Origin: Candidatus Limnocylindrales bacterium
GTDB taxonomy: Bacteria > Chloroflexota > Limnocylindria > Limnocylindrales > CSP1-4
Length of the DNA: 64,000 bases
Reading direction: 5' to 3'
NCBI GenBank assembly: GCA_044449785.1
Contig: JBIOII010000001.1
Location: 11,231-75,230 of the forward strand
A program made the position numbers and the translations under genes. Positions 11,605 to 44,532 of the stretch are shown in pieces. The notes under the pieces were generated by a model. That model had not been told where the DNA came from and did no database searches. It was given only the letters and a program-made list of their open reading frames with translations. Numbering within the stretch: the first letter of the stretch is position 1; each line of letters begins with the position of its first letter.

Positions 11605-12447
11605 ATGTCACGCCTGCGCGGGATCCTCCGGAGTGGCCCGACCCCGGCCGACTGGGAGTCGGTAGAGGAGCTGCTGATCTCCGGCGACGTCGGCGGGGCC
11701 CTGGCGGTGGAAGTCGTCGAGCGGGCGCGCGCCCGCAAGGACGAGCCATCGGCGGAGGCGGCCGTTCGGGCCGAGCTGGCGGCCCGTTTGCTGCCGGGTG
11801 ACAGGGGGTGGCGTCCGGGCTCGGCCGAGGCCGGGGCACCCGCCGTGATCCTGATGGTCGGCGTCAACGGAACGGGGAAGACCACCACCATCGGCAAGCT
11901 GGCTCACATGTACAGGGCCGAGGGCCGCTCGGTCCTCCTCGCCGCGGCCGACACGTTCCGGGCCGCCGCCATCGACCAGCTCCGCATCTGGTCGGACCGT
12001 ACTGCCAGCGATTTCGTGGCGCATGCCCCCGGGGCGGACCCCGCGGCTGTCATCTACGACGCGATCGACGCGGCCGTTGCCCGCCACATGGACGTGGTGA
12101 TCGCCGATACGGCCGGACGACTTCACACCAAGTCGAACCTGATGGACGAGCTGGCGAAGATGCGCCGCGTGATCAATAAACGCCTGCCCGGAGCGCGGCC
12201 TGAGGTGCTCTTCGTTCTCGACGCCACCACGGGCCAGAACGGTCTGTCGCAGGCGAAGGTATTCCACGAGACGGTTGGTCTGACGGGCATCGTCCTGACC
12301 AAGCTCGACTCGACCGCCAAGGGCGGCATCGTCTTTGCGATCGAGGACACGCTCCACGTCCCGGTGCGGTTCGTTGGAGTCGGGGAGAAGCTCGGCGACC
12401 TCCTTCTGTTCGATCCGGAGGCCTTCGTCGGCGCGCTGTTCGCCTAG
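11605..12447 (+). CDS. ftsY: signal recognition particle receptor FtsY (start uncertain; may extend upstream to about 11413 with an acidic/Pro-rich N-terminus)
   Basis: NG domain with [38 protein letters not shown] and [11 protein letters not shown]-terminal MSRLRGIL...[11 protein letters not shown] aligns with short FtsY proteins. The 11413-11604 in-frame region lacks an ATG/GTG/TTG apart from a CTG at 11413. Confidence 0.85.
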
Positions 12448-12499
12448 CGGCAACACGTCCCGCACGAGCGACCCGGGGGACGATCGAATCCTGGCCTGG

Positions 12500-13120
12500 C
12501 TAGTCCTCGGCGTCCCTCGCGCGCCTCTCAGCCGAACGCGAGAGCGCGGCAGCGATGGCCATCGGGATTTTCGAAACCAGGAACCCAGCCAGGACCAGCG
12601 GCGCGGCGGTGAGGGCATTGAGCCGCCAGACGGTGCCGCTGCTGCCGACCGCGAGGGCGAGAACAAGGCTGAAACCGGCCACGGCCAGGAGCCAGGCCGG
12701 GCCGTGGGTACGGAGGACGCCGGTCAAGGCCGCCGCTACCGCTATGCCCAGGACGACGGCCAGGTAGGCGCCTGTCTCGGCATCCGAGCCGGTCGATACC
12801 TTCTGCGCGGCCAATACCTGGAACGGCTCCAGCCAGTTGAAGGAGAGCAAGATGCGAACGGCGATCAACGCTAGCGGCGCGTAACCGATGATGGCCGCGT
12901 ACTTGTCGTCTGTGTACTCGGGCACACCTCGCGACGACAGCCAGGTGACGCCGCCCCGCGACGACCATATGCGGACCAGCTGAGCGGAAAGGAACCAGGC
13001 CGGAAACCACCAGTAGCCTGCAATCAGCCCAGCCACCGCGAGAACGAACACGGTGTACGGCGATGGAACGTCGGCCAATGTGGTCGGAGAGGCTTGTTTC
13101 GCCCCCGTGGTGCCGGTCAT
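12500..13120 (-). CDS. hypothetical polytopic membrane protein (about 5-6 TM helices)
   Basis: 206 aa with multiple hydrophobic segments rich in W, Y and F (LAVAGLIAGYWWFPAWFL, LAVVLGIAVAAALTGVL, LLAVAGFSLVLALAVG, LVLAGFLVSKIPMAIAAAL). This composition is unlike the R/S/P-rich out-of-frame artefacts common here. It is one of the few minus-strand genes, sitting between ftsY and ffh. Confidence 0.5.
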   Translation of the reverse strand: MTGTTGAKQASPTTLADVPSPYTVFVLAVAGLIAGYWWFPAWFLSAQLVRIWSSRGGVTWLSSRGVPEYTDDKYAAIIGYAPLALIAVRILLSFNWLEPFQVLAAQKVSTGSDAETGAYLAVVLGIAVAAALTGVLRTHGPAWLLAVAGFSLVLALAVGSSGTVWRLNALTAAPLVLAGFLVSKIPMAIAAALSRSAERRARDAED

Positions 13121-26042: not shown

Positions 26043-26840
26043 ATGAGCGAGGCCACTGCGGCCAGAGGCGAGGCCGGCGGTTCGGTCCAAACCGAGCCGG
26101 CGGCCGATGTTGCGAAGCGACCCCGCTACCGCCGCATCCTGCTCAAACTTTCCGGGGAGGCGCTTCTCGGTAAGCGGCAGTACGGCGTCGATCCGGACTT
26201 CTGCGCATTCATCGCCGCCCAGGTCGCGGAGGTCCATCGCTCTGGCGTCGAGATCGGCATCGTGGTCGGTGGCGGGAACATTTTCCGGGGTCTCGCGGCG
26301 GCCGCACGCGGCATGGACCGGGCCACTGGCGACTACATGGGCATGCTGGCGACCGTAATGAACGGCCTGGCCCTGCAAGACGCAATCGAGAAGGCGGGCG
26401 TGGCGACCCGCGTCATGAGCGCCATCGCGATGAACGAGATCGCGGAACCCTACATCCGGCGGCGGGCGGTCCGCCACCTCGAAAAGGGTCGGGTCATTAT
26501 CCTCGCGGCCGGAACTGGCAACCCTTACTTCACGACGGATACGGCAGCCGCGCTGCGGGCAGTGGAGATCGGGGCCGAGATCATCCTCAAGGCGACCAGG
26601 GTGGACGGTGTCTACGACTCCGATCCGCTCTCTAATCCGGACGCCAAACGCTACGAGCGGCTCACGTACTCACAGGTCCTGGCGCAGAGGCTGCGCGTTC
26701 TCGACGCCACGGCCGTGTCGCTGTGCATGGAGAATGACACTCCTATCGTCGTCTTCGATCTGAACACGCCCGAGAACATCACCCGCGTCGCAGCCGGCGA
26801 GCCGGTCGGCACCTTGATAACGGGAGGCAGCCCCGCATGA
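26043..26840 (+). CDS. pyrH: UMP kinase
   Basis: [21 protein letters not shown] and a [17 protein letters not shown]-type amino-acid-kinase motif. Confidence 0.95.
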
Positions 26841-27394
26841 GCAGCGAGATGTTGTCCGCCACCGAGCACAAGATGGCCCGGGCGGTGGAAGTTCTCGAAC
26901 GCGACCTGCAAGGCGTTCGCACCGGTCGTGCCTCGACTTCGCTGGTCGAGCGGGTCATGGTCGAGTACTACGGGACGCCCACGGCACTCAACCAGCTCGC
27001 CGGAATCAATGTCCCCGAGGCCCATCAGATCGTCATCCAGCCGTGGGACCGCGGAGTGCTGAGTGCCATCGAGAAGGCGATCATCAAGAGCGACATCGGT
27101 CTCGTGCCCAACGTCGATGGGGCCGTGGTCCGCCTGAACATCCCGCCGCTTACCGAGGAGCGCCGCAAGGACCTCGTGAAGGGCGTCCACAAGCGCATGG
27201 AGGAAGCGCGCGTCGAGATCCGGAACCTGCGCCGCGAGGCAGCCGACGGGCTCAAGAAGGAGGAGCACGACGGCACGCTCGGCGCCGATGAAGCCCGCCG
27301 CGAGCTCGAGCACCTCCAGCGCATCACCGACAAACACGTCGCCGACGTAGATCACATCGGCGCCGCGAAAGAGCAGGAGATCCTGGAGGTCTAG
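26837..27394 (+). CDS. frr: ribosome recycling factor
   Basis: 185 aa. [20 protein letters not shown]...[20 protein letters not shown] overlap with pyrH. Confidence 0.95.
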
Positions 27395-28212
27395 TGGCCG
27401 GCCGGATTTCCCGCCCAACCGACGCCCCGGCGCTAGTTCACCGGGAGTCGCAGGCGGTGGCCGATCAGCGGGTCGCAGGCCCCACGGCTCCGGACGCTGC
27501 TCCGACCGAGGCATTCGCAGTGCTCAATGAAGAGTTGCCGCGCCACGTGGCGATCATCATGGACGGCAACCGGCGCTGGGCAAAGGCGCGCGGGCGGCCC
27601 GAGATGGACGGCCACACCGCGGGCGTCGAGGCGATCCGCGAGATCATCCGGCACTCGGTCCGGCGAGGCATCGAGGTCCTGTCGCTCTACGCGTTCAGCC
27701 GCGAGAACTGGGCACGCTCCGACGAGGAGGTGAGCGGCCTGTTCATGCTCCTCGAACAAGTGATCCGCAATGAGACGGCCGAGCTGCGAGAGCAGGGCGC
27801 GCGCGTCAGGCTTCTGGGTCGGATCGACGAGCTGCCCCCGGCCACGCGAGCGTCGATCGAGCGGGCGCTGGAGGCCACGGCCCGTGGCACCCGGCTTCAG
27901 CTCAACATCGCGTTCAACTACTCGGGCCGGACCGAGCTGGTCGATGCCGCGCGCAGCCTCGCGGCGCGCGGTCTCCGGCCGGAGGAAATCGACGAAGACG
28001 TCCTGGCCGGCGCCCTGTACACCGCCGGGATGCCGGACCCGGATGTGGTGATCCGGACCGGGGGCGATGAACGGCTGTCGAACTTCCTGATCTGGCAGGC
28101 GGCTTACGCCGAGTTCTACTTCAGCCCGATCCTGTGGCCGGATTTCGGCCCGGCTGCGTTCGACGCCGCTCTCGTCGAGTACGCGAGCCGGCAGCGCCGG
28201 TTCGGCCGGTAG
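27394..28212 (+). CDS. uppS: isoprenyl transferase (undecaprenyl diphosphate synthase) with an N-terminal extension of about 45 aa
   Basis: PRHVAIIMDGNRRWA, FSRENWARS and VIRTGGDERLSNFLIWQAAYAEFYF. GTG overlaps the frr TAG (TAGTG). Confidence 0.9.
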   Translation: MAGRISRPTDAPALVHRESQAVADQRVAGPTAPDAAPTEAFAVLNEELPRHVAIIMDGNRRWAKARGRPEMDGHTAGVEAIREIIRHSVRRGIEVLSLYAFSRENWARSDEEVSGLFMLLEQVIRNETAELREQGARVRLLGRIDELPPATRASIERALEATARGTRLQLNIAFNYSGRTELVDAARSLAARGLRPEEIDEDVLAGALYTAGMPDPDVVIRTGGDERLSNFLIWQAAYAEFYFSPILWPDFGPAAFDAALVEYASRQRRFGR

Positions 28213-37956: not shown

Positions 37957-38514
37957 ATGACGCAAAGAACTGATCGGATCGACGAGCTCCTTCGCCAGGA
38001 GATCGGCCAGGCGCTCGAGCGCGAGATCACCGATCCACGCATCGGATTCGTCACTGTCACAGACGTGGAGACCGTGCCGGATCTCTCGCGCGCCCGGGTC
38101 TGGGTGAGCATCATCGGCACCGCCGAGCAACGCAAGGAAAGCCTATCGGCGCTACGGCGGGCGATGCCGTTCATTCGCCGTGGCCTCGGATCGAAGATCC
38201 GCCTGAGGCGCATCCCCGAGCTCGAGGTGCGGCTCGACGATTCGATCGAGCGAGGCACCCGGGTCCTCCGGATCATCAACGAGCTTGAGGCCGGCAAGAA
38301 CCCCGCAGACGCTTCCGTCGGTGGCGGCGAGTCGCTGCCGACGCCGGTTGCCAGGCTGCCGCACGCGGGTGATTCGCTCGACGAGATGCTCGCCGCGACG
38401 CCGCCGCCCGATTCGGCGTCCAAGCCCGCGGTCAGGCGGCCGCGCGGCGGCGGGCGGGCGGGCGGCAAGCGCCGGCCTTCCGCCAAGCCGACCGAGCGCC
38501 GGAGCCGGCCATGA
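37957..38514 (+). CDS. rbfA: ribosome-binding factor A with a basic/Pro-rich C-terminal extension
   Basis: RIDELLRQEIGQALEREITDPRIGFVTVTDVE...VWVSI KH-like RbfA core, followed by an R/G/P-rich tail of about 65 aa. Confidence 0.85.
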   Translation: MTQRTDRIDELLRQEIGQALEREITDPRIGFVTVTDVETVPDLSRARVWVSIIGTAEQRKESLSALRRAMPFIRRGLGSKIRLRRIPELEVRLDDSIERGTRVLRIINELEAGKNPADASVGGGESLPTPVARLPHAGDSLDEMLAATPPPDSASKPAVRRPRGGGRAGGKRRPSAKPTERRSRP

Positions 38515-39545
38515 GCGAGGCCTCGCCGCGAGTCGACCTGACCGCGTATGCCGCCGCTGTACCCGACGATGTCGTCGAGCGGCTGAAGGCCGCGCGGCAC
38601 GTCCTCACGATATGCCACGAGAACCCAGAGGCGGACGCGCTCGGATCGGCGTTGGCCCTGGCGCTGCTCGTCGAGGCGAGTGGGGGAGTGGCAACTCCCG
38701 TTTGCCCTGACGCGGTTCCGGCAATGTACGAGTTCTTGCCGGGAATGGACCGGTTTCGTCGCGAACCGGATCCATCGATCGATTACGACTTGCTCGTGGT
38801 CGGCGACTGCGGCGAGCTGGAGAGAATCGGGCCCGTGCTGACGTCGCATGCGGAGCTGTTCACGAGGGTGCCAATCCTCGACATCGATCACCACGTCTCC
38901 AACGCTGGCTTTGGAGCCGTGGATTGGGTTGATCCGCACAGCTCGGCGACGTGCGAGATGGTCACGCTACTCGCGTGGCGTCTCGGAGTGCCGCTGACGG
39001 CGGTCGGTGGAACCCTTGCCTCGGCCCTGGCCGGTGGCGTCGTGATGGACACCGGAAACTTCCAGCACCCCAACGTAACGCCCCGCACTCTCGTAGTGAT
39101 CGCGGCGCTAAAGGAAGCCGGGGCACCGCTGAGCGAGATTGCCCGGCGCCTCTACCGCTCCAAACCGAACACGCAGCTGTGCCTGTTCGGCCGGGTCCTG
39201 GCGCGGATGGAGTCCGACCTCGGCGGGAGGCTCGTCTGGTCCACCCTGGAGCTGGCCGACCTGGCCGCGAGCGGCGCCTTGCCGTCTGAGTCGGAAGGTC
39301 TCATCGACCTGCTTTCGCAGTCGGAGACCTCCGAGGCCGCGATCCTCTTCAAGGAAGCCGGCGACTCGACCCGCATCAGCGTCCGAACACGGGACGGCGG
39401 CGTGGACGCGACCGTTCTGACCGGGACTTTCGGGGGCGGCGGCCACGCCCGTGCCGCCGGCGCCACATTGGCGTTGCCCCTCGAGGAAGCGCGCCGGGCG
39501 GTTCTGTCGCGCGCGGCGTCGCTCGTTTCAGCGGTCGAGCGGTAG
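38511..39545 (+). CDS. nrnA: DHH-family phosphoesterase NrnA (bifunctional oligoribonuclease/pAp phosphatase)
   Basis: DHH motifs LTICHENPEADALGSALAL, DHH and a DHHA1 GGGHARAAGATL. ATGA overlap with rbfA. Confidence 0.8.
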   Translation: MSEASPRVDLTAYAAAVPDDVVERLKAARHVLTICHENPEADALGSALALALLVEASGGVATPVCPDAVPAMYEFLPGMDRFRREPDPSIDYDLLVVGDCGELERIGPVLTSHAELFTRVPILDIDHHVSNAGFGAVDWVDPHSSATCEMVTLLAWRLGVPLTAVGGTLASALAGGVVMDTGNFQHPNVTPRTLVVIAALKEAGAPLSEIARRLYRSKPNTQLCLFGRVLARMESDLGGRLVWSTLELADLAASGALPSESEGLIDLLSQSETSEAAILFKEAGDSTRISVRTRDGGVDATVLTGTFGGGGHARAAGATLALPLEEARRAVLSRAASLVSAVER

Positions 39546-39547
39546 CT

Positions 39548-41413
39548 GTGGCCGCACCTGCCAGGGGCATGGACGGGATCCTCGTCGTCGCCAAGGAACC
39601 CGGCTTCACCTCGCACGATGTGGTGGCGCTGATCCGGCGGCTGACCGGGACGCGCCGCGCCGGCCACGGCGGCACGCTGGACCCGTTCGCCTCCGGCGTC
39701 CTGCCGGTCTTTCTCGGTATGGCGACGCGGCTCGTCGAATACCACATGGCCGACGACAAGGCCTATCGTGCGACGATCTGCTTCGGCGCCAGCTCGGAGA
39801 CGGACGACCGGGATGGCGAGCTGGTACCAGGTGCGGGTCCCGCGCCGACACGACAGGCAGTCGAGGCGGCGCTGGCTGCGTTTCGCGGCCGGATACAGCA
39901 GCGGCCGCCGGCTTACAGCGCTCTCAAGGTCGGCGGCCGGCGGGCATACGATCTGGCTCGCGAGGGAACTCCGGTCGAGCTGGCACCGCGGGCGGTCACG
40001 ATCAGCCGTCTGGACCTTCTCGAGTGGGACGGATCGGATCGCGATCGCCCGACCGCGGTCCTCGAAGTGGAATGTGGTGCCGGCACGTACATCAGATCGC
40101 TGGCCCGTGATTTGGGGGAGCGGTTGGGTTGCGGCGCCTATCTGGGGGCGCTTGTCAGGGTCTCGAGCGGGCCGTTCAGAACGGCGGCCGCACACTCCAT
40201 CGACGACGTCCGCCGGGCGGCCGCCGAGGGACCGGCGGCGCTGGCCGGGCTCCTTCTGCCCATCGACGCCGGCCTGGACACGATTCCGGAAGCGGAGCTT
40301 ACCGAGGCCGAGGTCGCGGCCGCGTCGCGCGGCCAGCAGGTGAAGCCCGTTCACCGGCCGCAGGTCGAAGCCGGGGCAAGGGTCCGGCTCGTGGCGGAGG
40401 ATCGATCGCTGATCGGGATCGGGTCGTGGAAGGGCGGCCGGCTCGTGCCCGAGAAGATCTTCGTGGCCGCCCCGCCGTCGGCATCGGGTGGAGGCTCCCG
40501 TGACAGCGGGCCCTCCGGGTCCTGGTCCCGCGAGGGCGACCACGCGATTCAGGTCGAGCCGCGGTTGCGGATGGTCGAACCGGCCAACCGCATGACCGTA
40601 GTCTCGGGTATCGACGCTCTCAGCGCCGAGCTAGGCCGCCTTTATCTGGCGGTGGGTGTCTTCGACGGCCTCCACCGCGGCCACCTTTATCTTCTCCGCG
40701 AGTTGCGGCGGGCGGCCGCGCGGGCCGGAGCGAGACCGGCCGTGATCACGTTCGACGCGCATCCGGAGGAGCTGATCGAGGGTCTGGCCCCGCCGCTGTT
40801 GTGCGATCCGGACGAGCGCCTGGTGCGCCTCGGTGCGGCCGGGGTCGCGGTGACGGTCGTCCAGCACTTCGACCACGCCCTTCGCATTACTCCCTACGAC
40901 GGCTTCGTGGCCGCGATTCGGGAGCGCGTGGAGCTGGCGGGGTTCGTGATGACACCGGACGCGGCGTTCGGCTTCGAGCGTGGCGGCACGCCGAAAACGC
41001 TGGTCGCGCTCGGTGAGCGCGAAGGGTTTAGCGTCACTGTCGTTTCGTCCTTCCTGTCGAACGGCGAGCAGGTACGCAGCTCCGAGATACGCCGCCGCAT
41101 CGCATCGGGCGACCTGGCCGGGGCGAGACAGCTGCTCGGCCGGCTCCACGGATTCACCGGCACGCTCGCCCCAAGCCACGGAGCCGGATTCGCACCGCTT
41201 ACCATCGAGCTCCCAGTCGCCCTGCCGCCGGACGGCCGCTACCGAGCGCTGGTCGGGCCGGCGTGGAAGCCGGGTGGCCGGCCCCAGCCGGCCACGATGC
41301 CCTCGGTGGCCGAGGTCCTCGACGGTCGGGTGCGTCTCGAAACCTCCGGCGTGAACCGCGCCGGCGAAGTCCGCGTCGTTTTGCTCGGTTCGCACGAGGG
41401 AGAGGCAAGTTAA
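39548..41413 (+). CDS. truB: single 621-aa ORF encoding tRNA pseudouridine55 synthase TruB (aa 1-about 330) fused in frame to an FAD synthetase (RibF N-terminal FMN adenylyltransferase domain) and a degenerate riboflavin-kinase-like tail
   Basis: TruB: ILVVAKEPGFTSHDVV...GHGGTLDPFASGVLPVFLG (catalytic Asp), PUA-like end. There is no stop codon before the RibF-like part, MTVVSGIDALSAELGRLYLAVGVFDGLHRGHLYLL (nucleotidyltransferase GxFDGxHxGH). An internal ATG at 40592 could serve as an independent ribF start. The last 100 aa lack the riboflavin-kinase PTAN motif. Confidence 0.85.
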   Translation: MAAPARGMDGILVVAKEPGFTSHDVVALIRRLTGTRRAGHGGTLDPFASGVLPVFLGMATRLVEYHMADDKAYRATICFGASSETDDRDGELVPGAGPAPTRQAVEAALAAFRGRIQQRPPAYSALKVGGRRAYDLAREGTPVELAPRAVTISRLDLLEWDGSDRDRPTAVLEVECGAGTYIRSLARDLGERLGCGAYLGALVRVSSGPFRTAAAHSIDDVRRAAAEGPAALAGLLLPIDAGLDTIPEAELTEAEVAAASRGQQVKPVHRPQVEAGARVRLVAEDRSLIGIGSWKGGRLVPEKIFVAAPPSASGGGSRDSGPSGSWSREGDHAIQVEPRLRMVEPANRMTVVSGIDALSAELGRLYLAVGVFDGLHRGHLYLLRELRRAAARAGARPAVITFDAHPEELIEGLAPPLLCDPDERLVRLGAAGVAVTVVQHFDHALRITPYDGFVAAIRERVELAGFVMTPDAAFGFERGGTPKTLVALGEREGFSVTVVSSFLSNGEQVRSSEIRRRIASGDLAGARQLLGRLHGFTGTLAPSHGAGFAPLTIELPVALPPDGRYRALVGPAWKPGGRPQPATMPSVAEVLDGRVRLETSGVNRAGEVRVVLLGSHEGEAS

Positions 41414-41558
41414 TGGTCCGGCACGGGGCCGCCGACCCGCGCCGAATCGCGGCGCTCGGAGTCGCCCTCGTCTAGCACGGGCGTGCGAACCCTGCTACCA
41501 TCCGCCAGGCATTTAGAGAGTTAGGAAACCACAGTCACAGAGCTATTCGGAGGATCGT

Positions 41559-41828
41559 GTGCCGCTCGCGCGGGAGACGAAGGAACAGGTTATTTCGGAG
41601 TACGCCGTCAAGGATGGCGACACGGGCTCAGCAGAGGTGCAGATTGCGCTCCTGACCGAGAGGATCAAGGAGCTTACGGAGCACCTGCGAGGCTTTCCGA
41701 AGGACAACCAGTCCCGCCGCGGCCTCCTCAAGCTCGTCGGACAGCGACGCAGACTTCTGGCATATCTTGTCAAGAAGGACAACGCTCGCTATCGGGCCGT
41801 CATCGCACGGCTGGGACTGCGCCGCTAG
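41559..41828 (+). CDS. rpsO: 30S ribosomal protein S15
   Basis: 89 aa. [21 protein letters not shown]...[21 protein letters not shown] start. Confidence 0.95.
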
Positions 41829-41943
41829 CGCAATCGCGTCGACGTGGGGCTGAGACCCCTCGCCGGCATATTCGCGCCCGGCTCGTCCAGGCGAGAGCAA
41901 GGACACACGCGCTTCCTCCTACGCTCGGGAGGAATACCAACCC
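41829..41943 (+). promoter_or_regulatory. rpsO-pnp intercistronic leader with two stem-loops (candidate RNase III / autoregulatory site and an SD-sequestering hairpin)
   Basis: GGGGCUGAGACCCC (4-bp G/C stem) at about 41845-41858. UUCCUCC-uacgcuc-GGGAGGAA (7-bp stem) at about 41903-41925, which places the GGGAGGAA Shine-Dalgarno-like element in the 3' arm of the stem, 18 nt before the pnp GTG. Confidence 0.5.
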
Positions 41944-44532
41944 GTGTCTCAGACATTCGAGACGCAATTCGCCGGTCGCACCCTGACCATCGAGACCGGC
42001 AAGCTCGCCATGCTGGCGGGTGGCTCAGTAACCGTTCGCTTCGGCGACACCATGGTCCTCGGAACCGCCAACCGGTCGGATCCGCGGCCCGGGCTCGACT
42101 TCTTCCCGCTCACCGTCGAGTTCGAAGAGCGCATGTACGCCGCCGGCAAGATCCCGGGCGGCTTCATCAAGCGTGAGTCGCGACCGTCCGAGCAGGCCAT
42201 CCTGTCGGCGCGTCTGACCGACCGACCGATCCGCCCCCTCTTCCCCGAGGGTTACAAGGACGACGTCCAGGTCGTTATCACGGTCCTCTCCACCGACCAG
42301 GAGAACCAGGCCGACGTTCTCGGCACCGTCGCCGCGTCAGCGGCGCTGACGATCAGCGAGATCCCATTCCAGGGCCCGATCGGGGCGGTACGCATCGGCC
42401 GCATCGACGGCGAGTTTGTCGTCAATCCGACCATCGCCGACCTCGAGCGCTCCGACATCGATCTCGTGGTCTCCGGTACCCGCGACGCCATCATGATGGT
42501 CGAGGCCGGCGCCTCGATCGTCCCCGAAGAGGTCATGGCCGAGGCGATCCTCTTCGCCCACCGTGCCCTCCAGCCGCTCATCGACCTACAGGAGAAGCTG
42601 CGCGAGGCAGTCGGCAAGCCGAAGAGCACCGTTTACCTCGAGCCCGGCACCGGTTCGGTGCTCGACTTCGTCAAGAAGGTCGGCGAGCCCGGTTGGGAGC
42701 TGGTCGTTCTGGATGTCGAGACGACGGGCCGCGACCCCAAGATGGCCGACCTCATCGAGATCGGCGCCGTGCGGGTGCGCGGCGGCCAGGTAGTAGACCG
42801 TTTCTCGACCTTCGTCAGCCCCGGCCGCGACATCTTCGGAACCCAGATGCACGGCATCACGACAGCCGACGTCGCCGGCGCCCCTCTCGCTCGGGAAGCG
42901 GCCGAGAAGCTGCTCGCGTTCGTCGGCGGCGCTCCCGTCGTGGGCCACAACGTCGGCTTCGACCTCGGGTTCCTGGATGAGGCTCTCGGCCAGCCCGGCA
43001 AACTCATCGAAGGCGGCTACTTCGATACCCTCGTCATCGCCCATGAGGCCTATCCGGACCTCGAGTCGTACAAGCTGGGCGACATCGCCCGCTTCTTCGG
43101 CATCAGCGTCGAGACGGCCCACCGCGGGCTGGCCGACGCCGAGACGACGGCCGCCATACTGGCGCAGTTCGCCGGCGATATCCCGAACCGAGTAGAGAAC
43201 CTCAAGGATGGCATCGCCATCTCCATTCGTGCCAACCGCAAGGAAGGCGAGAACTCTGCCGGCCTGCTCGACGCCGCTCGTCGACAGGCACGCGTCAGCA
43301 AGAGTCTCTTCGGGCTGGTGCAGAAGAAGACCGTTCGCCAGCTGGTCCTCGACGAGGGGATCCGCATGGACGGCCGCGGCATCGACGAGCTCCGGCAGAT
43401 CACGGTCGAGGTCGGCGTCCTGCCACGCGCCCACGGTTCCGGGCTATTCACCCGCGGCCAGACCCAGGCCCTCACCGTAGCGACGCTCGGCCCCGCCTCG
43501 GACGTGCAGCGGATCGACACGATCAGCCCCGAGACCGAGAAGCGGTATCTCCACCACTACAACATGCCCCCGTACAGCACCGGCGAGAACAAGCCGATGC
43601 GCGGCCCCGGCCGTCGCGAGATCGGCCACGGCCATCTCGCCGAACGCGCCCTGTTGCCGGTCCTGCCTTCTGAGGACGAGTTCCCGTACGTCATCAGGCT
43701 CGTCAGCGAGTGCGTGACGTCGAACGGCTCCACCTCGATGGCGTCGACCTGTGGCTCGAGCCTCGCTCTGATGGACGCCGGCGTGCCGATCAAGGCAGCC
43801 GTCGGCGGCGCGGCGATGGGCCTCATCAGCGAACCAGACGGCCGTTTCGTCGTCCTGACTGACATCCTCGGCAAGGAAGACGCCTTCGGCGACATGGACT
43901 TCAAGGTGACCGGCACCCGCGAGGGCGTCACGGCGCTACAGATGGACATCAAGGTCAAAGGCATAAACGAGGCGATCATCCGCCAGGGCCTCCAGAAGGC
44001 ACACGCGGCGCGGATCGCCATCCTCGACAAGATGGATGCGGTCATCCCGACGAGCCGCACCGAGATGAGCAGCTTCGCTCCGCGCATTATCACCATCAAG
44101 ATCAACCCCGAGAAGATCCGCGACATCATCGGCAAGGGCGGCTCCGTGATCCGCAAGATCCAGGAGGAGACCGGCACCGAGATCAACGTCGAGGACGACG
44201 GCACCGTCCAGATTGCCGCGGTGTCGGGCGATAGCTCGCGCAAGGCGGTGCAGTGGATCGAATCGCTCACCCGCGAGGTCGAGGTCGGCGGCCTGTACCT
44301 CGGCAAGGTCACCCGGATCATGGGCTTCGGCGCCTTCGTCGAGATCCTGCCGGGCAAGGAAGGCCTGGTCCGGATCGGCGAGCTGGCCGACTACCACGTT
44401 CCCACGGTTGAGGATGTGGTCTCGGTCGGCGACGAGGTCATGGTCGTGGTGGTCGAGATCGACCGCCAGGGCCGCATCAACCTTTCGCGCAAGGCCGCGA
44501 TGCAGCGCCACCTCGCTCGCGCCGAGTCGTAG
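41944..44532 (+). CDS. pnp: polyribonucleotide nucleotidyltransferase (PNPase) carrying an inserted DEDDh 3'-5' exonuclease domain (862 aa)
   Basis: RNase PH-1 domain, RNase PH-2 domain (RMDGRGIDELRQITVEVGVLPRAHGSGLFTRGQTQAL...FKVTGTREG), KH domain (GKGGSVIRKIQEETG) and S1 domain (GKVTRIMGFGAFVEI). Between PH-1 and PH-2, at aa about 250-415, lies a DnaQ-like exonuclease domain with Exo I VVLDVETTG, Exo II VVGHNVGFDLGFL and Exo III AHRGLADAETTA (H-x4-D, DEDDh). Confidence 0.95.
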   Translation: MSQTFETQFAGRTLTIETGKLAMLAGGSVTVRFGDTMVLGTANRSDPRPGLDFFPLTVEFEERMYAAGKIPGGFIKRESRPSEQAILSARLTDRPIRPLFPEGYKDDVQVVITVLSTDQENQADVLGTVAASAALTISEIPFQGPIGAVRIGRIDGEFVVNPTIADLERSDIDLVVSGTRDAIMMVEAGASIVPEEVMAEAILFAHRALQPLIDLQEKLREAVGKPKSTVYLEPGTGSVLDFVKKVGEPGWELVVLDVETTGRDPKMADLIEIGAVRVRGGQVVDRFSTFVSPGRDIFGTQMHGITTADVAGAPLAREAAEKLLAFVGGAPVVGHNVGFDLGFLDEALGQPGKLIEGGYFDTLVIAHEAYPDLESYKLGDIARFFGISVETAHRGLADAETTAAILAQFAGDIPNRVENLKDGIAISIRANRKEGENSAGLLDAARRQARVSKSLFGLVQKKTVRQLVLDEGIRMDGRGIDELRQITVEVGVLPRAHGSGLFTRGQTQALTVATLGPASDVQRIDTISPETEKRYLHHYNMPPYSTGENKPMRGPGRREIGHGHLAERALLPVLPSEDEFPYVIRLVSECVTSNGSTSMASTCGSSLALMDAGVPIKAAVGGAAMGLISEPDGRFVVLTDILGKEDAFGDMDFKVTGTREGVTALQMDIKVKGINEAIIRQGLQKAHAARIAILDKMDAVIPTSRTEMSSFAPRIITIKINPEKIRDIIGKGGSVIRKIQEETGTEINVEDDGTVQIAAVSGDSSRKAVQWIESLTREVEVGGLYLGKVTRIMGFGAFVEILPGKEGLVRIGELADYHVPTVEDVVSVGDEVMVVVVEIDRQGRINLSRKAAMQRHLARAES

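What the first reader, a model, noticed from the sequence alone, without database searches (positions are those of the whole stretch)
39548..41413. truB and ribF encoded as one uninterrupted 621-aa ORF; the riboflavin-kinase half of RibF looks degenerate
truB and ribF are normally adjacent but separate genes. Here the TruB catalytic/PUA region is followed, without any stop codon and in the same frame, by a typical FMN adenylyltransferase domain (LYLAVGVFDGLHRGHLYLL...). The C-terminal 100 aa, where the riboflavin kinase should be, lack the PTAN flavin-binding motif: the sequence reads GFTGTLAP where G-PTAN-L would be expected. Two internal ATGs (40571, 40592) sit right at the start of the RibF-like part, so both a fusion protein and an independent RibF could be made. 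Either possibility is unusual: a pseudouridine synthase-FAD synthetase fusion, or same-frame nested genes.
Basis: seen in the sequence. Interest (0 to 1): 0.6.

Follow-up and report, generated by a model that had tools for sequence, protein, structure and literature searches.

The report
Conserved TruB–FAD synthetase fusion, kinase lost
In this soil Chloroflexota lineage the tRNA pseudouridine synthase TruB and the FAD-making half of RibF are really one protein whose riboflavin-kinase end has decayed to a small barrel; similar fusions turn out to be common in sequence databases, so it is a real but only moderately unusual variant.

Summary
The 621-aa ORF (39548-41413, +) is real. It is identical to an NCBI MAG protein from Candidatus Limnocylindrales. 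At least 120 protein clusters (67-100% identity) and about 30 species-level genomes keep the same single ORF, so it is not an assembly artefact.

Its parts are a complete TruB with PUA domain, a disordered Gly/Ala-rich linker of variable length, an FMN adenylyltransferase with invariant active-site motifs, and an ~80-aa six-stranded barrel. The barrel is a riboflavin-kinase remnant: the PTAN loop is deleted, the catalytic-Glu loop is shortened, and the C-terminal helix is gone.

More distant Limnocylindrales keep separate, translationally coupled truB and ribF with an intact kinase. An intermediate group has an unfused ribF that already has the degenerate tail, so kinase decay probably came before fusion.

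The nested-gene idea is weak. M349 is the ancestral ribF start, but it has no Shine-Dalgarno sequence and is replaced in one fused subclade.

Neither feature is unique. TruB-RibF fusions, mostly with intact kinase, occur in many unrelated lineages. FMNAT with a short PTAN-less C-terminus matches the published "FADS-type II". I found no paper describing the fusion. The enzyme that supplies FMN in this clade was not found.

The parts
39548..41413 (+). Whole fused truB-ribF' ORF (621 aa from GTG 39548; stop TAA 41411-41413)
   Evidence: identical to P0001, which NCBI names TruB from a Candidatus Limnocylindrales MAG
39569..39571 (+). ATG (M8), the likely true start codon
   Evidence: 71 of 119 homologues start here and 108 of 119 have Met at this column; the consensus begins MDGILVVAK
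39572..40276 (+). TruB catalytic domain (residues 9-243), including the catalytic Asp45 codon at 39680-39682
   Evidence: Pfam TruB_N and TruB_C_2; TIGR00431 224 bits vs cut-off 151; H40, D45, Y73 and R183 invariant in 119 sequences; Foldseek to E. coli TruB 1k8w, TM 0.88; dN/dS 0.15
40286..40462 (+). TruB PUA domain (residues 247-305)
   Evidence: Pfam PF09157, 30.6 bits vs cut-off 21; pLDDT >90
40463..40555 (+). Linker (residues 306-336): Gly/Ala/Ser-rich, variable in length (about 25-50 aa in homologues), predicted disordered
   Evidence: alignment; pLDDT <50 for residues 311-333; dN/dS 0.69
40556..40594 (+). Conserved 'EPRLRxVxPxNRM' segment (residues 337-349). It contains M342 (40571-40573) and M349 (40592-40594); M349 is the ancestral ribF start codon
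   Evidence: E337 and M349 invariant in A1; codons vary synonymously and no Shine-Dalgarno sequence lies upstream; M349 aligns with the start of unfused RibF in relatives
40595..41146 (+). FMN adenylyltransferase module (residues 350-533). HxGH lies at 40673-40684; SSxIR is residues 511-515
   Evidence: Pfam FAD_syn E 2e-28; H376, H379, D471, S511, S512 and R515 invariant; motifs as defined in PMC2573891; dN/dS 0.11; Foldseek to FADS 2x0k and 4uzf
41147..41392 (+). Degenerate riboflavin-kinase remnant (residues 534-615): a six-stranded beta-barrel without PTAN loop or C-terminal helix
   Evidence: no Flavokinase hit; hhalign of the tail against RFK, 89.8% probability, E 2e-7; AF2 model of the tail alone, pLDDT 89, pTM 0.80; best fold matches are the RFK modules of 3op1, 5a88 and 5a8a, TM about 0.6; dN/dS 0.46
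41168..41203 (+). Site where the PTAN loop should be (residues 541-552, APSHGAGFAPLT); a loop of variable length in homologues
38511..39545 (+). Upstream neighbour: DHH-family nrnA-like gene, whose stop lies 2 nt before GTG 39548. It belongs to the conserved infB-rbfA-nrnA-truB/ribF-rpsO-pnp block
   Evidence: the same gene order in L041 and L042
41559..41828 (+). Downstream neighbour rpsO, with its own GGAGGA ribosome-binding site

Best explanation
The ORF is one gene for one polypeptide with two working enzymes and a relic.

- An N-terminal tRNA pseudouridine-55 synthase (TruB with its PUA domain).
- A flexible low-complexity linker.
- An FMN adenylyltransferase that makes FAD from FMN and ATP.
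- An ~80-aa beta-barrel left over from the riboflavin-kinase module. It can no longer phosphorylate riboflavin, because the PTAN ATP/Mg loop is deleted, the Glu-loop is shortened and its Glu is not conserved, and the flavin-capping C-terminal helix is missing.

The likely history within Limnocylindrales has three stages. The ancestor had truB followed by a translationally coupled bifunctional ribF (a 2-nt spacer or an overlap between stop and start codons). The kinase module then decayed, giving an unfused enzyme like the published FADS-type II. Finally, a sub-clade that includes this genome lost the truB stop codon, and the two frames were joined through a newly made linker of variable length.

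Shown here: the architecture, its conservation, the state of the motifs, the predicted fold, and the order of states among relatives.

Inferred: that both enzyme activities are retained, that kinase activity is lost, that FMN comes from an unidentified separate kinase or from uptake, and that the barrel is kept for structural or regulatory reasons.
For: - **The fusion is conserved.** At least 120 clusters of 600-660 aa share the same Pfam architecture. Forty GTDB species genomes, all Chloroflexota/Limnocylindrales, carry a relative, and about 30 of them have the single ORF.
- **Sister genomes are unfused.** L032, L033, L035 and L037 have separate truB and ribF with GFPTANL, GVRPTF, LEVHLFD..LYG and the C-terminal helix. 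Their stop and start codons overlap or lie 2 nt apart.
- **An intermediate state exists.** P0249, P0252, P0257, P0260, P0271 and P0300 are unfused, hit FAD_syn only, have degenerate tails, and branch below the fused clade. In L044 the truB stop codon overlaps the ribF ATG.
- **Selection acts on both enzymes.** dN/dS is 0.15 for TruB, 0.11 for FMNAT, 0.69 for the linker and 0.46 for the tail.
- **Catalytic residues are invariant.** H40, D45, Y73 and R183 in TruB; H376, H379, D471, S511, S512 and R515 in FMNAT (motifs from PMC2573891).
- **The tail descends from the kinase module.** phmmer alignment to CaFADS runs through kinase strand 1 and 'ALPxDGxY'. hhalign gives 89.8% probability. The whole-model FADS alignment spans about 290 columns. 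The best fold matches of the tail-only model are RFK modules.
- **Kinase motifs are gone.** There is no Pfam Flavokinase hit and no score against a 36-sequence RFK HMM even at E<=10. The PTAN region is an indel-rich loop. The Glu equivalent E598 is kept in only 72 of 119 sequences.
Against: - No biochemical data exist, so the activities are inferred from motifs.
- The NJ tree behind 'decay before fusion' is rough: one domain, distance method, no support values. Two fragmentary fused proteins (P0242, P0246) sit among or near the unfused forms, so fission after fusion, or more than one fusion, is possible.
- The FMNAT N4 motif deviates from the consensus (G123 to T, F126 to A). The sister genomes with an intact kinase show the same deviation.
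- No replacement riboflavin kinase was found for this clade, so the metabolic logic is incomplete.
- Tail dN/dS of 0.46 and eight invariant tail residues show the barrel is not simply decaying.
Confidence: 0.8

Rival explanations
1. Assembly or sequencing artefact: a missed stop codon or frameshift falsely joins separate truB and ribF genes.
For: Some related long-read MAGs do carry frameshifts in this region (L021, L022, L026, L034, L040).
Against: The same in-frame junction occurs in at least 120 protein clusters and about 30 species genomes from independent projects, both Illumina and nanopore. Linker indels are always multiples of three. The frameshifted assemblies still read through the junction in one frame.
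Confidence: 0.02
2. Same-frame nested genes: besides the full-length fusion, internal initiation at ATG 40592 (M349, the ancestral ribF start) yields a free FMNAT-plus-barrel protein.
For: M349 is invariant in all 119 close homologues although it lies next to a variable linker. It aligns exactly with the start of unfused RibF in relatives.
Against: There is no Shine-Dalgarno sequence upstream, whereas rpsO, pnp, nusA, infB, proS and acpP in the window all have GGAGG-type sites. No promoter-like site lies in the region. The codons upstream vary synonymously while the residues are conserved, which points to protein-level selection rather than a conserved RBS. M349 is replaced by His or Ala in fused loci L017-L020, L023, L039, L018 and L021. 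The 119 sequences are closely related, so invariance is weaker evidence than the number suggests.
Confidence: 0.12
3. The C-terminal barrel has gained a new function, for example flavin hydrolase, regulation, or an oligomer contact that shapes the FMNAT site. This has been proposed for plant-like FADS and FADS-type II.
For: dN/dS of 0.46 is below neutral. P556, P560, G563, Y565, G570, W573, A582 and R609 are invariant. The fold is predicted with confidence (pLDDT 89). Other lineages (P0251, P0266, P0342, P0388) also keep a short PTAN-less tail. PMC2972280 discusses a possible different activity or a regulatory role.
Against: The invariant residues are mostly Pro, Gly and aromatic, typical of a structural core. 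No conserved polar constellation is evident. Nothing links the tail to a specific chemistry.
Confidence: 0.2
4. The tail still phosphorylates riboflavin through a non-canonical site, so the protein is trifunctional.
For: No other riboflavin kinase was found in the window or in the flanks of related loci. 'PPDGxY', part of the flavin-pocket motif, is retained.
Against: The PTAN loop (T208 and N210 bind Mg-ATP) is deleted. The equivalent of the E268 catalytic base is not conserved (72 of 119). The terminal helix that closes the flavin pocket is absent. Only 64 kb of this genome and about 12 kb per related genome were searched, so a kinase elsewhere is entirely possible.
Confidence: 0.04

Closest known systems
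Bacterial TruB, tRNA pseudouridine-55 synthase (E. coli TruB, PDB 1K8W)
   Same: Full catalytic domain plus PUA domain; catalytic Asp in GTLDP and the His, Tyr and Arg partners are invariant; TM 0.88 to 1k8w.
   Different: It does not end after the PUA domain. It continues through a 30-50-aa linker into a second enzyme.
Bifunctional FAD synthetase, type I (RibF; C. ammoniagenes FADS, PDB 2X0K)
   Same: The N-terminal FMNAT module with the HxGH and SSxxR motifs; two-module layout with a beta-barrel after the FMNAT module; the same genomic position downstream of truB.
   Different: The kinase module is about 80 aa instead of about 150. It lacks PTAN, the GxxPT and Glu-loop consensus, and the terminal helix. 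TIGR00083 scores 85 bits against a cut-off of 184.
FADS-type II and plant-like FADS (AtRibF1/AtRibF2), as defined by Yruela et al. 2010 (PMC2972280)
   Same: Conserved FMNAT module followed by a C-terminal module that is 40-60 residues shorter and lacks PTAN. According to Sandoval et al. 2008, as reported in PMC2972280, the plant enzymes have FADS activity but no RFK activity.
   Different: Here the module is fused to TruB. It arose independently inside Chloroflexota from a local type I ribF. The plant LNxPP motif was not looked for.
TruB-RibF fusion proteins in other bacteria (e.g. NCBI MBR6824617.1 from Bacillota MAGs and MBQ3848438.1 from Clostridia MAGs, both named 'bifunctional riboflavin kinase/FAD synthetase')
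   Same: Single polypeptide with TruB_N followed by FAD_syn.
   Different: Most keep an intact Flavokinase domain (P0250, P0253, P0258). Their junctions differ: spacing between the TruB and FMNAT motifs ranges from 199 to 379 residues, and some lack the PUA domain. This suggests independent fusion events. A few (P0251, P0266, P0342, P0388) have also lost the kinase.

Membership tests
TruB (tRNA pseudouridine-55 synthase, TIGR00431) | Family HMM above the curated cut-off | tested here: met
   TIGR00431 224.2 bits vs 151.45; Pfam TruB_N 168 bits vs 27.3
TruB (tRNA pseudouridine-55 synthase, TIGR00431) | Catalytic Asp in the GTLDP motif with the conserved His, Tyr and Arg partners | tested here: met
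   H40, D45, Y73 and R183 are invariant in 119 homologues. Residue roles are from my own knowledge of E. coli TruB (H43, D48, Y76, R181).
TruB (tRNA pseudouridine-55 synthase, TIGR00431) | C-terminal PUA domain and the TruB fold | tested here: met
   PF09157 30.6 bits vs 21; Foldseek to 1k8w E 3e-27, TM 0.88
TruB (tRNA pseudouridine-55 synthase, TIGR00431) | Converts U55 of tRNA to pseudouridine | not testable with these tools
   Needs an enzyme assay
Bifunctional riboflavin kinase/FAD synthetase, type I (RibF, TIGR00083) | Family HMM above the curated cut-off | tested here: not met
   TIGR00083 85 bits vs 184; the best NF00416x model 118 bits vs 295; matches stop near model position 200 of 325
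Bifunctional riboflavin kinase/FAD synthetase, type I (RibF, TIGR00083) | FMNAT motifs N1 (GxFDGxHxGH), N2 (F-x-P-H/Q-P), N5 (SS[TS]x[IV]R) | tested here: met
   VGVFDGLHRGH, TFDAHP and RSSEIR are invariant; motif definitions from PMC2573891. N4 is partly divergent (MTPDAAFG), as it is in sister genomes with an intact kinase.
Bifunctional riboflavin kinase/FAD synthetase, type I (RibF, TIGR00083) | Flavokinase domain with G[FY]PT[ALIV]N, GxxPT, the [LVI]E...Y[GDN] loop and the terminal helix (R292, D310) | tested here: not met
   No PF01687 hit; no hit to the custom RFK HMM; PTAN loop deleted, Glu not conserved, helix absent
FADS-type II (Yruela et al. 2010) | FMNAT module conserved with HxGH and SSxxR | tested here: met
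   definition in PMC2972280
FADS-type II (Yruela et al. 2010) | C-terminal module shorter than in type I and without the PTAN motif | tested here: met
   About 80-88 aa against about 150 aa; no PTAN
FADS-type II (Yruela et al. 2010) | FMNAT activity without RFK activity | not testable with these tools
   Needs flavin HPLC or TLC assays on purified protein
TruB-RibF fusion architecture (no formal family name) | TruB_N and FAD_syn in one uninterrupted ORF, conserved in orthologues | tested here: met

The most novel reading that the evidence does not exclude
The fusion may be more than a neutral merger of neighbouring genes. It recurs in unrelated lineages (Chloroflexota, Bacillota/Clostridia and others of unknown taxon) with different junctions. 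That could mean pseudouridine-55 synthase and FAD synthesis are functionally coupled. For example, FAD might be made where flavin-dependent tRNA-modifying enzymes act, such as TrmFO on the neighbouring U54. Alternatively, tRNA binding might regulate FAD synthesis. In the Limnocylindrales form the kinase barrel would then be retained as an interface for that coupling. This would explain the long-standing, unexplained conservation of truB-ribF adjacency.
Probability: 0.07. Interest if true: 0.75.

Novelty: new variant of a known kind. Interest (0 to 1): 0.38.

Why it matters
- **Annotation.** Public records call this protein just 'TruB', and call its cousins just 'riboflavin kinase/FAD synthetase'. 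Metabolic reconstructions of Limnocylindria would therefore either miss FAD synthesis or wrongly credit these genomes with a riboflavin kinase.
- **Evolution.** Limnocylindrales provides a clean natural series in one lineage: bifunctional RibF, then FMNAT with a dead kinase barrel, then the TruB fusion. This is useful for studying how the kinase module contributes to FMNAT function in FAD synthetases, which are discussed as drug targets.
- **Open question.** It is unknown what makes FMN in this clade.
- **Possible functional link.** The recurrence of TruB-RibF fusions is Rosetta-stone-type evidence for a link between the two genes, but only weak evidence, because adjacent, translationally coupled genes fuse easily.

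Tried and rejected
1. **Stand-alone riboflavin kinase.**
 - Pfam on 20 unassigned ORFs of the window found none.
 - A custom RFK HMM was run over all six-frame ORFs of at least 40 aa in the window and 44 loci. It hit only the unfused sister ribF genes.
 - A protein search with the sister-clade kinase domain returned only short ribF fragments. P0131 and P0174 proved to be frameshift pieces in the same truB context.
 - P0231 is a genuine 138-aa stand-alone Flavokinase on a 73%-GC JGI contig, next to shikimate dehydrogenase. Its taxon could not be established, and its homologues share no contig with fused genes.
 - Archaeal-type CTP-dependent kinases were covered only through the Pfam scans of those 20 ORFs.
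2. **Assembly artefact.** Rejected; see the rival explanations.
3. **Internal promoter or RBS.** No promoter-like site lies in 39300-42000, and there is no Shine-Dalgarno sequence before M342 or M349.
4. **FMN riboswitch or other RNA element.** Rfam at gathering thresholds found nothing in the window.
5. **Literature on the fusion.** Searches for TruB+RibF+fusion, for pseudouridine synthase+FAD synthetase+gene fusion, and for truB+ribF found none. PMC4630832 describes only an ordinary truB-ribF operon. The Limnocylindria paper PMC6169038 says nothing relevant.
7. **First tail alignment.** It was rebuilt as A3 from accepted sequences.
Full report
**Observation.** The window (68% G+C) holds an uninterrupted ORF from GTG 39548 to TAA 41413, 621 aa. 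Its codon-position G+C looks coding (GC3 0.82). Pfam finds TruB_N (30-182), TruB_C_2 (183-243), the PUA domain (247-303) and FAD_syn (363-512), with no Flavokinase hit even at E<=1. NCBIfam places the N-terminal half above the TruB cut-off. Every RibF equivalog model falls far below its cut-off and matches only its first ~200 positions. The ORF sits in the usual infB-rbfA-nrnA-truB-ribF-rpsO-pnp block. The likely start is ATG 39569 (M8) rather than GTG 39548.

**Not an artefact.** The protein is identical to an NCBI MAG protein from Candidatus Limnocylindrales. At least 120 clusters at 67-100% identity have the same length and architecture. A scan of one genome per GTDB species returned 40 loci, all Chloroflexota/Limnocylindrales MAGs from independent short-read and long-read projects. 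About 30 carry the single ORF. Three more have obvious assembly frameshifts or N-runs elsewhere in the gene but read through the junction in one frame.

**Anatomy.** An alignment of 119 homologues and an AlphaFold model (pLDDT 85) show four parts.

- TruB with its PUA domain, up to about residue 305.
- A Gly/Ala/Ser-rich linker, about 25-50 aa in homologues, disordered (pLDDT <50) and nearly neutral (dN/dS 0.69).
- A conserved 'EPRLRxVxPxNRM' segment followed by the FMNAT module (350-533).
- Six beta-strands (534-615) and then the end of the protein.

The model's N-terminal half matches E. coli TruB (1k8w, TM 0.88). Its C-terminal half matches bifunctional FAD synthetases over about 290 columns, which includes the tail.

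Both enzymes are under strong purifying selection (dN/dS 0.15 and 0.11). Their catalytic residues are invariant: H40, D45, Y73 and R183 in TruB, and H376, H379, D471, S511, S512 and R515 in FMNAT. The FMNAT motifs are those defined for the FADS family in PMC2573891.

**The tail is a dead riboflavin-kinase barrel.**

- phmmer aligns the protein to C. ammoniagenes FADS through the first kinase strand and the 'ALPxDGxY' strand, with a gap where GRGGKELGFPTAN lies.
- A profile-profile comparison of the tail alignment with a 36-sequence kinase alignment gives 89.8% probability (E 2e-7). It shows the PTAN loop deleted, the Glu-loop shortened and the C-terminal helix absent. Part of that score comes from the shared 'LLGR' helix end.
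- The PTAN region is an indel-rich loop in the family. The Glu equivalent is kept in only 72 of 119 sequences.
- A kinase HMM does not detect the tails at all.
- Folded alone, the tail gives a confident six-stranded barrel (pLDDT 89, pTM 0.80). Its best structural matches are the kinase modules of S. pneumoniae and C. ammoniagenes FADS (TM about 0.6, probability 0.97-1.0), although the E-values are weak.
- The tail is under relaxed but real constraint (dN/dS 0.46), with eight invariant residues.

**History.** More distant Limnocylindrales (L032, L033, L035, L037; also L034 and L040, which carry frameshift errors) have separate truB and ribF. Their stop and start codons overlap or lie 2 nt apart, and that ribF has a fully canonical kinase. 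A further group (P0249, P0252, P0257, P0260, P0271, P0300) is unfused, hits FAD_syn only and has degenerate tails. In the one locus of this group that was fetched (L044, encoding P0257), the truB stop overlaps the ribF ATG. In a rough NJ tree of the FMNAT domain these proteins branch below the fused clade. The simplest reading is that kinase decay came first and fusion by stop-codon loss followed. This ordering is an inference from a weak tree.

**Nested gene?** M349 aligns with the ancestral ribF start and is invariant in the 119 close homologues. Several observations argue against an independent start.

- No Shine-Dalgarno sequence precedes it, whereas independently initiated genes in the window have GGAGG.
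- No promoter-like site is nearby.
- The upstream codons vary synonymously while the residues are conserved.
- Fused genomes of one subclade have His or Ala at this position.
- M342 is Val or Ile in nearly all homologues.

A minor internally initiated product cannot be excluded, but the conserved product is the fusion.

**Comparison with what is known.** A profile search of 1.84 billion representatives found about 45 proteins among the best 150 that carry both TruB and FMNAT motifs. They come from clearly different lineages.

- Most keep an intact Flavokinase domain: P0250, P0253 and P0258 by Pfam, and many more by the PTAN motif.
- Four others have lost it (P0251, P0266, P0342, P0388).
- Junction geometry varies widely, and some lack the PUA domain. 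This argues for several independent fusions.
- NCBI names such proteins simply 'bifunctional riboflavin kinase/FAD synthetase' or 'TruB'.

The FMNAT-plus-short-PTAN-less-tail half fits 'FADS-type II' and resembles the plant-like FADS (PMC2972280). According to that paper, the plant-like enzymes showed FAD synthetase activity but no kinase activity. I found no paper describing the TruB fusion, but only the held library was searched.

**Open point.** No riboflavin kinase was found in the 64-kb window or in the flanks of the related loci. Protein searches seeded with the sister-clade kinase domain also found none attributable to the fused clade. Whole genomes could not be scanned with these tools.

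**Verdict.** The finding is real and correctly read in its essentials. It is a lineage-conserved TruB-FMNAT fusion with a relic kinase barrel. Each element has precedents, so I rate it a new variant of a known kind with moderate interest (0.38). Its value lies mainly in correcting annotation, in the natural evolutionary series it provides, and in the unanswered question of where FMN comes from.

Noticed in passing
window 41944-44532 (+): The PNPase gene encodes 862 aa and carries an RNase_T/DEDD exonuclease domain (PF00929, residues 254-406, E 1e-28) inserted between the two RNase PH cores, where the all-alpha PNPase domain normally lies. The insert is conserved (52-85% identity) in at least 27 related Limnocylindrales loci, in both the fused and unfused truB clades. 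One literature search found nothing on it. It may deserve its own follow-up.
   Followed up: partly
window 39548-39571: The annotated GTG start is probably 7 codons too early. Most homologues begin at the ATG at 39569 (MDGILVV...).
   Followed up: yes
L043 5001-5417 (protein P0231): A genuine stand-alone 138-aa Flavokinase gene directly upstream of a shikimate dehydrogenase gene, on a 68-kb, 73%-GC JGI metagenome contig of unknown taxon. It is a candidate type for the missing kinase but is not linked to the fused clade.
   Followed up: partly
proteins P0247, P0385, P0319; P0189: Database proteins that appear to join the upstream DHH/NrnA gene to TruB, or Flavokinase to ribosomal protein S15. 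Several contain long frameshift-like stretches, so they are probably assembly or gene-calling artefacts rather than further fusions.
   Followed up: no
proteins P0292, P0342, P0276, P0286, P0384: TruB-RibF fusions from other lineages in which the TruB and FMNAT motifs lie only 199-242 residues apart, so the PUA domain seems to have been lost at the junction.
   Followed up: no
window 11608-12666 (-) and 26651-27514 (-): Two long ORFs with high GC3 have no Pfam hit. The second lies where pyrH and frr would be expected on the + strand, so it is probably a spurious antisense ORF typical of high-GC DNA.
   Followed up: no
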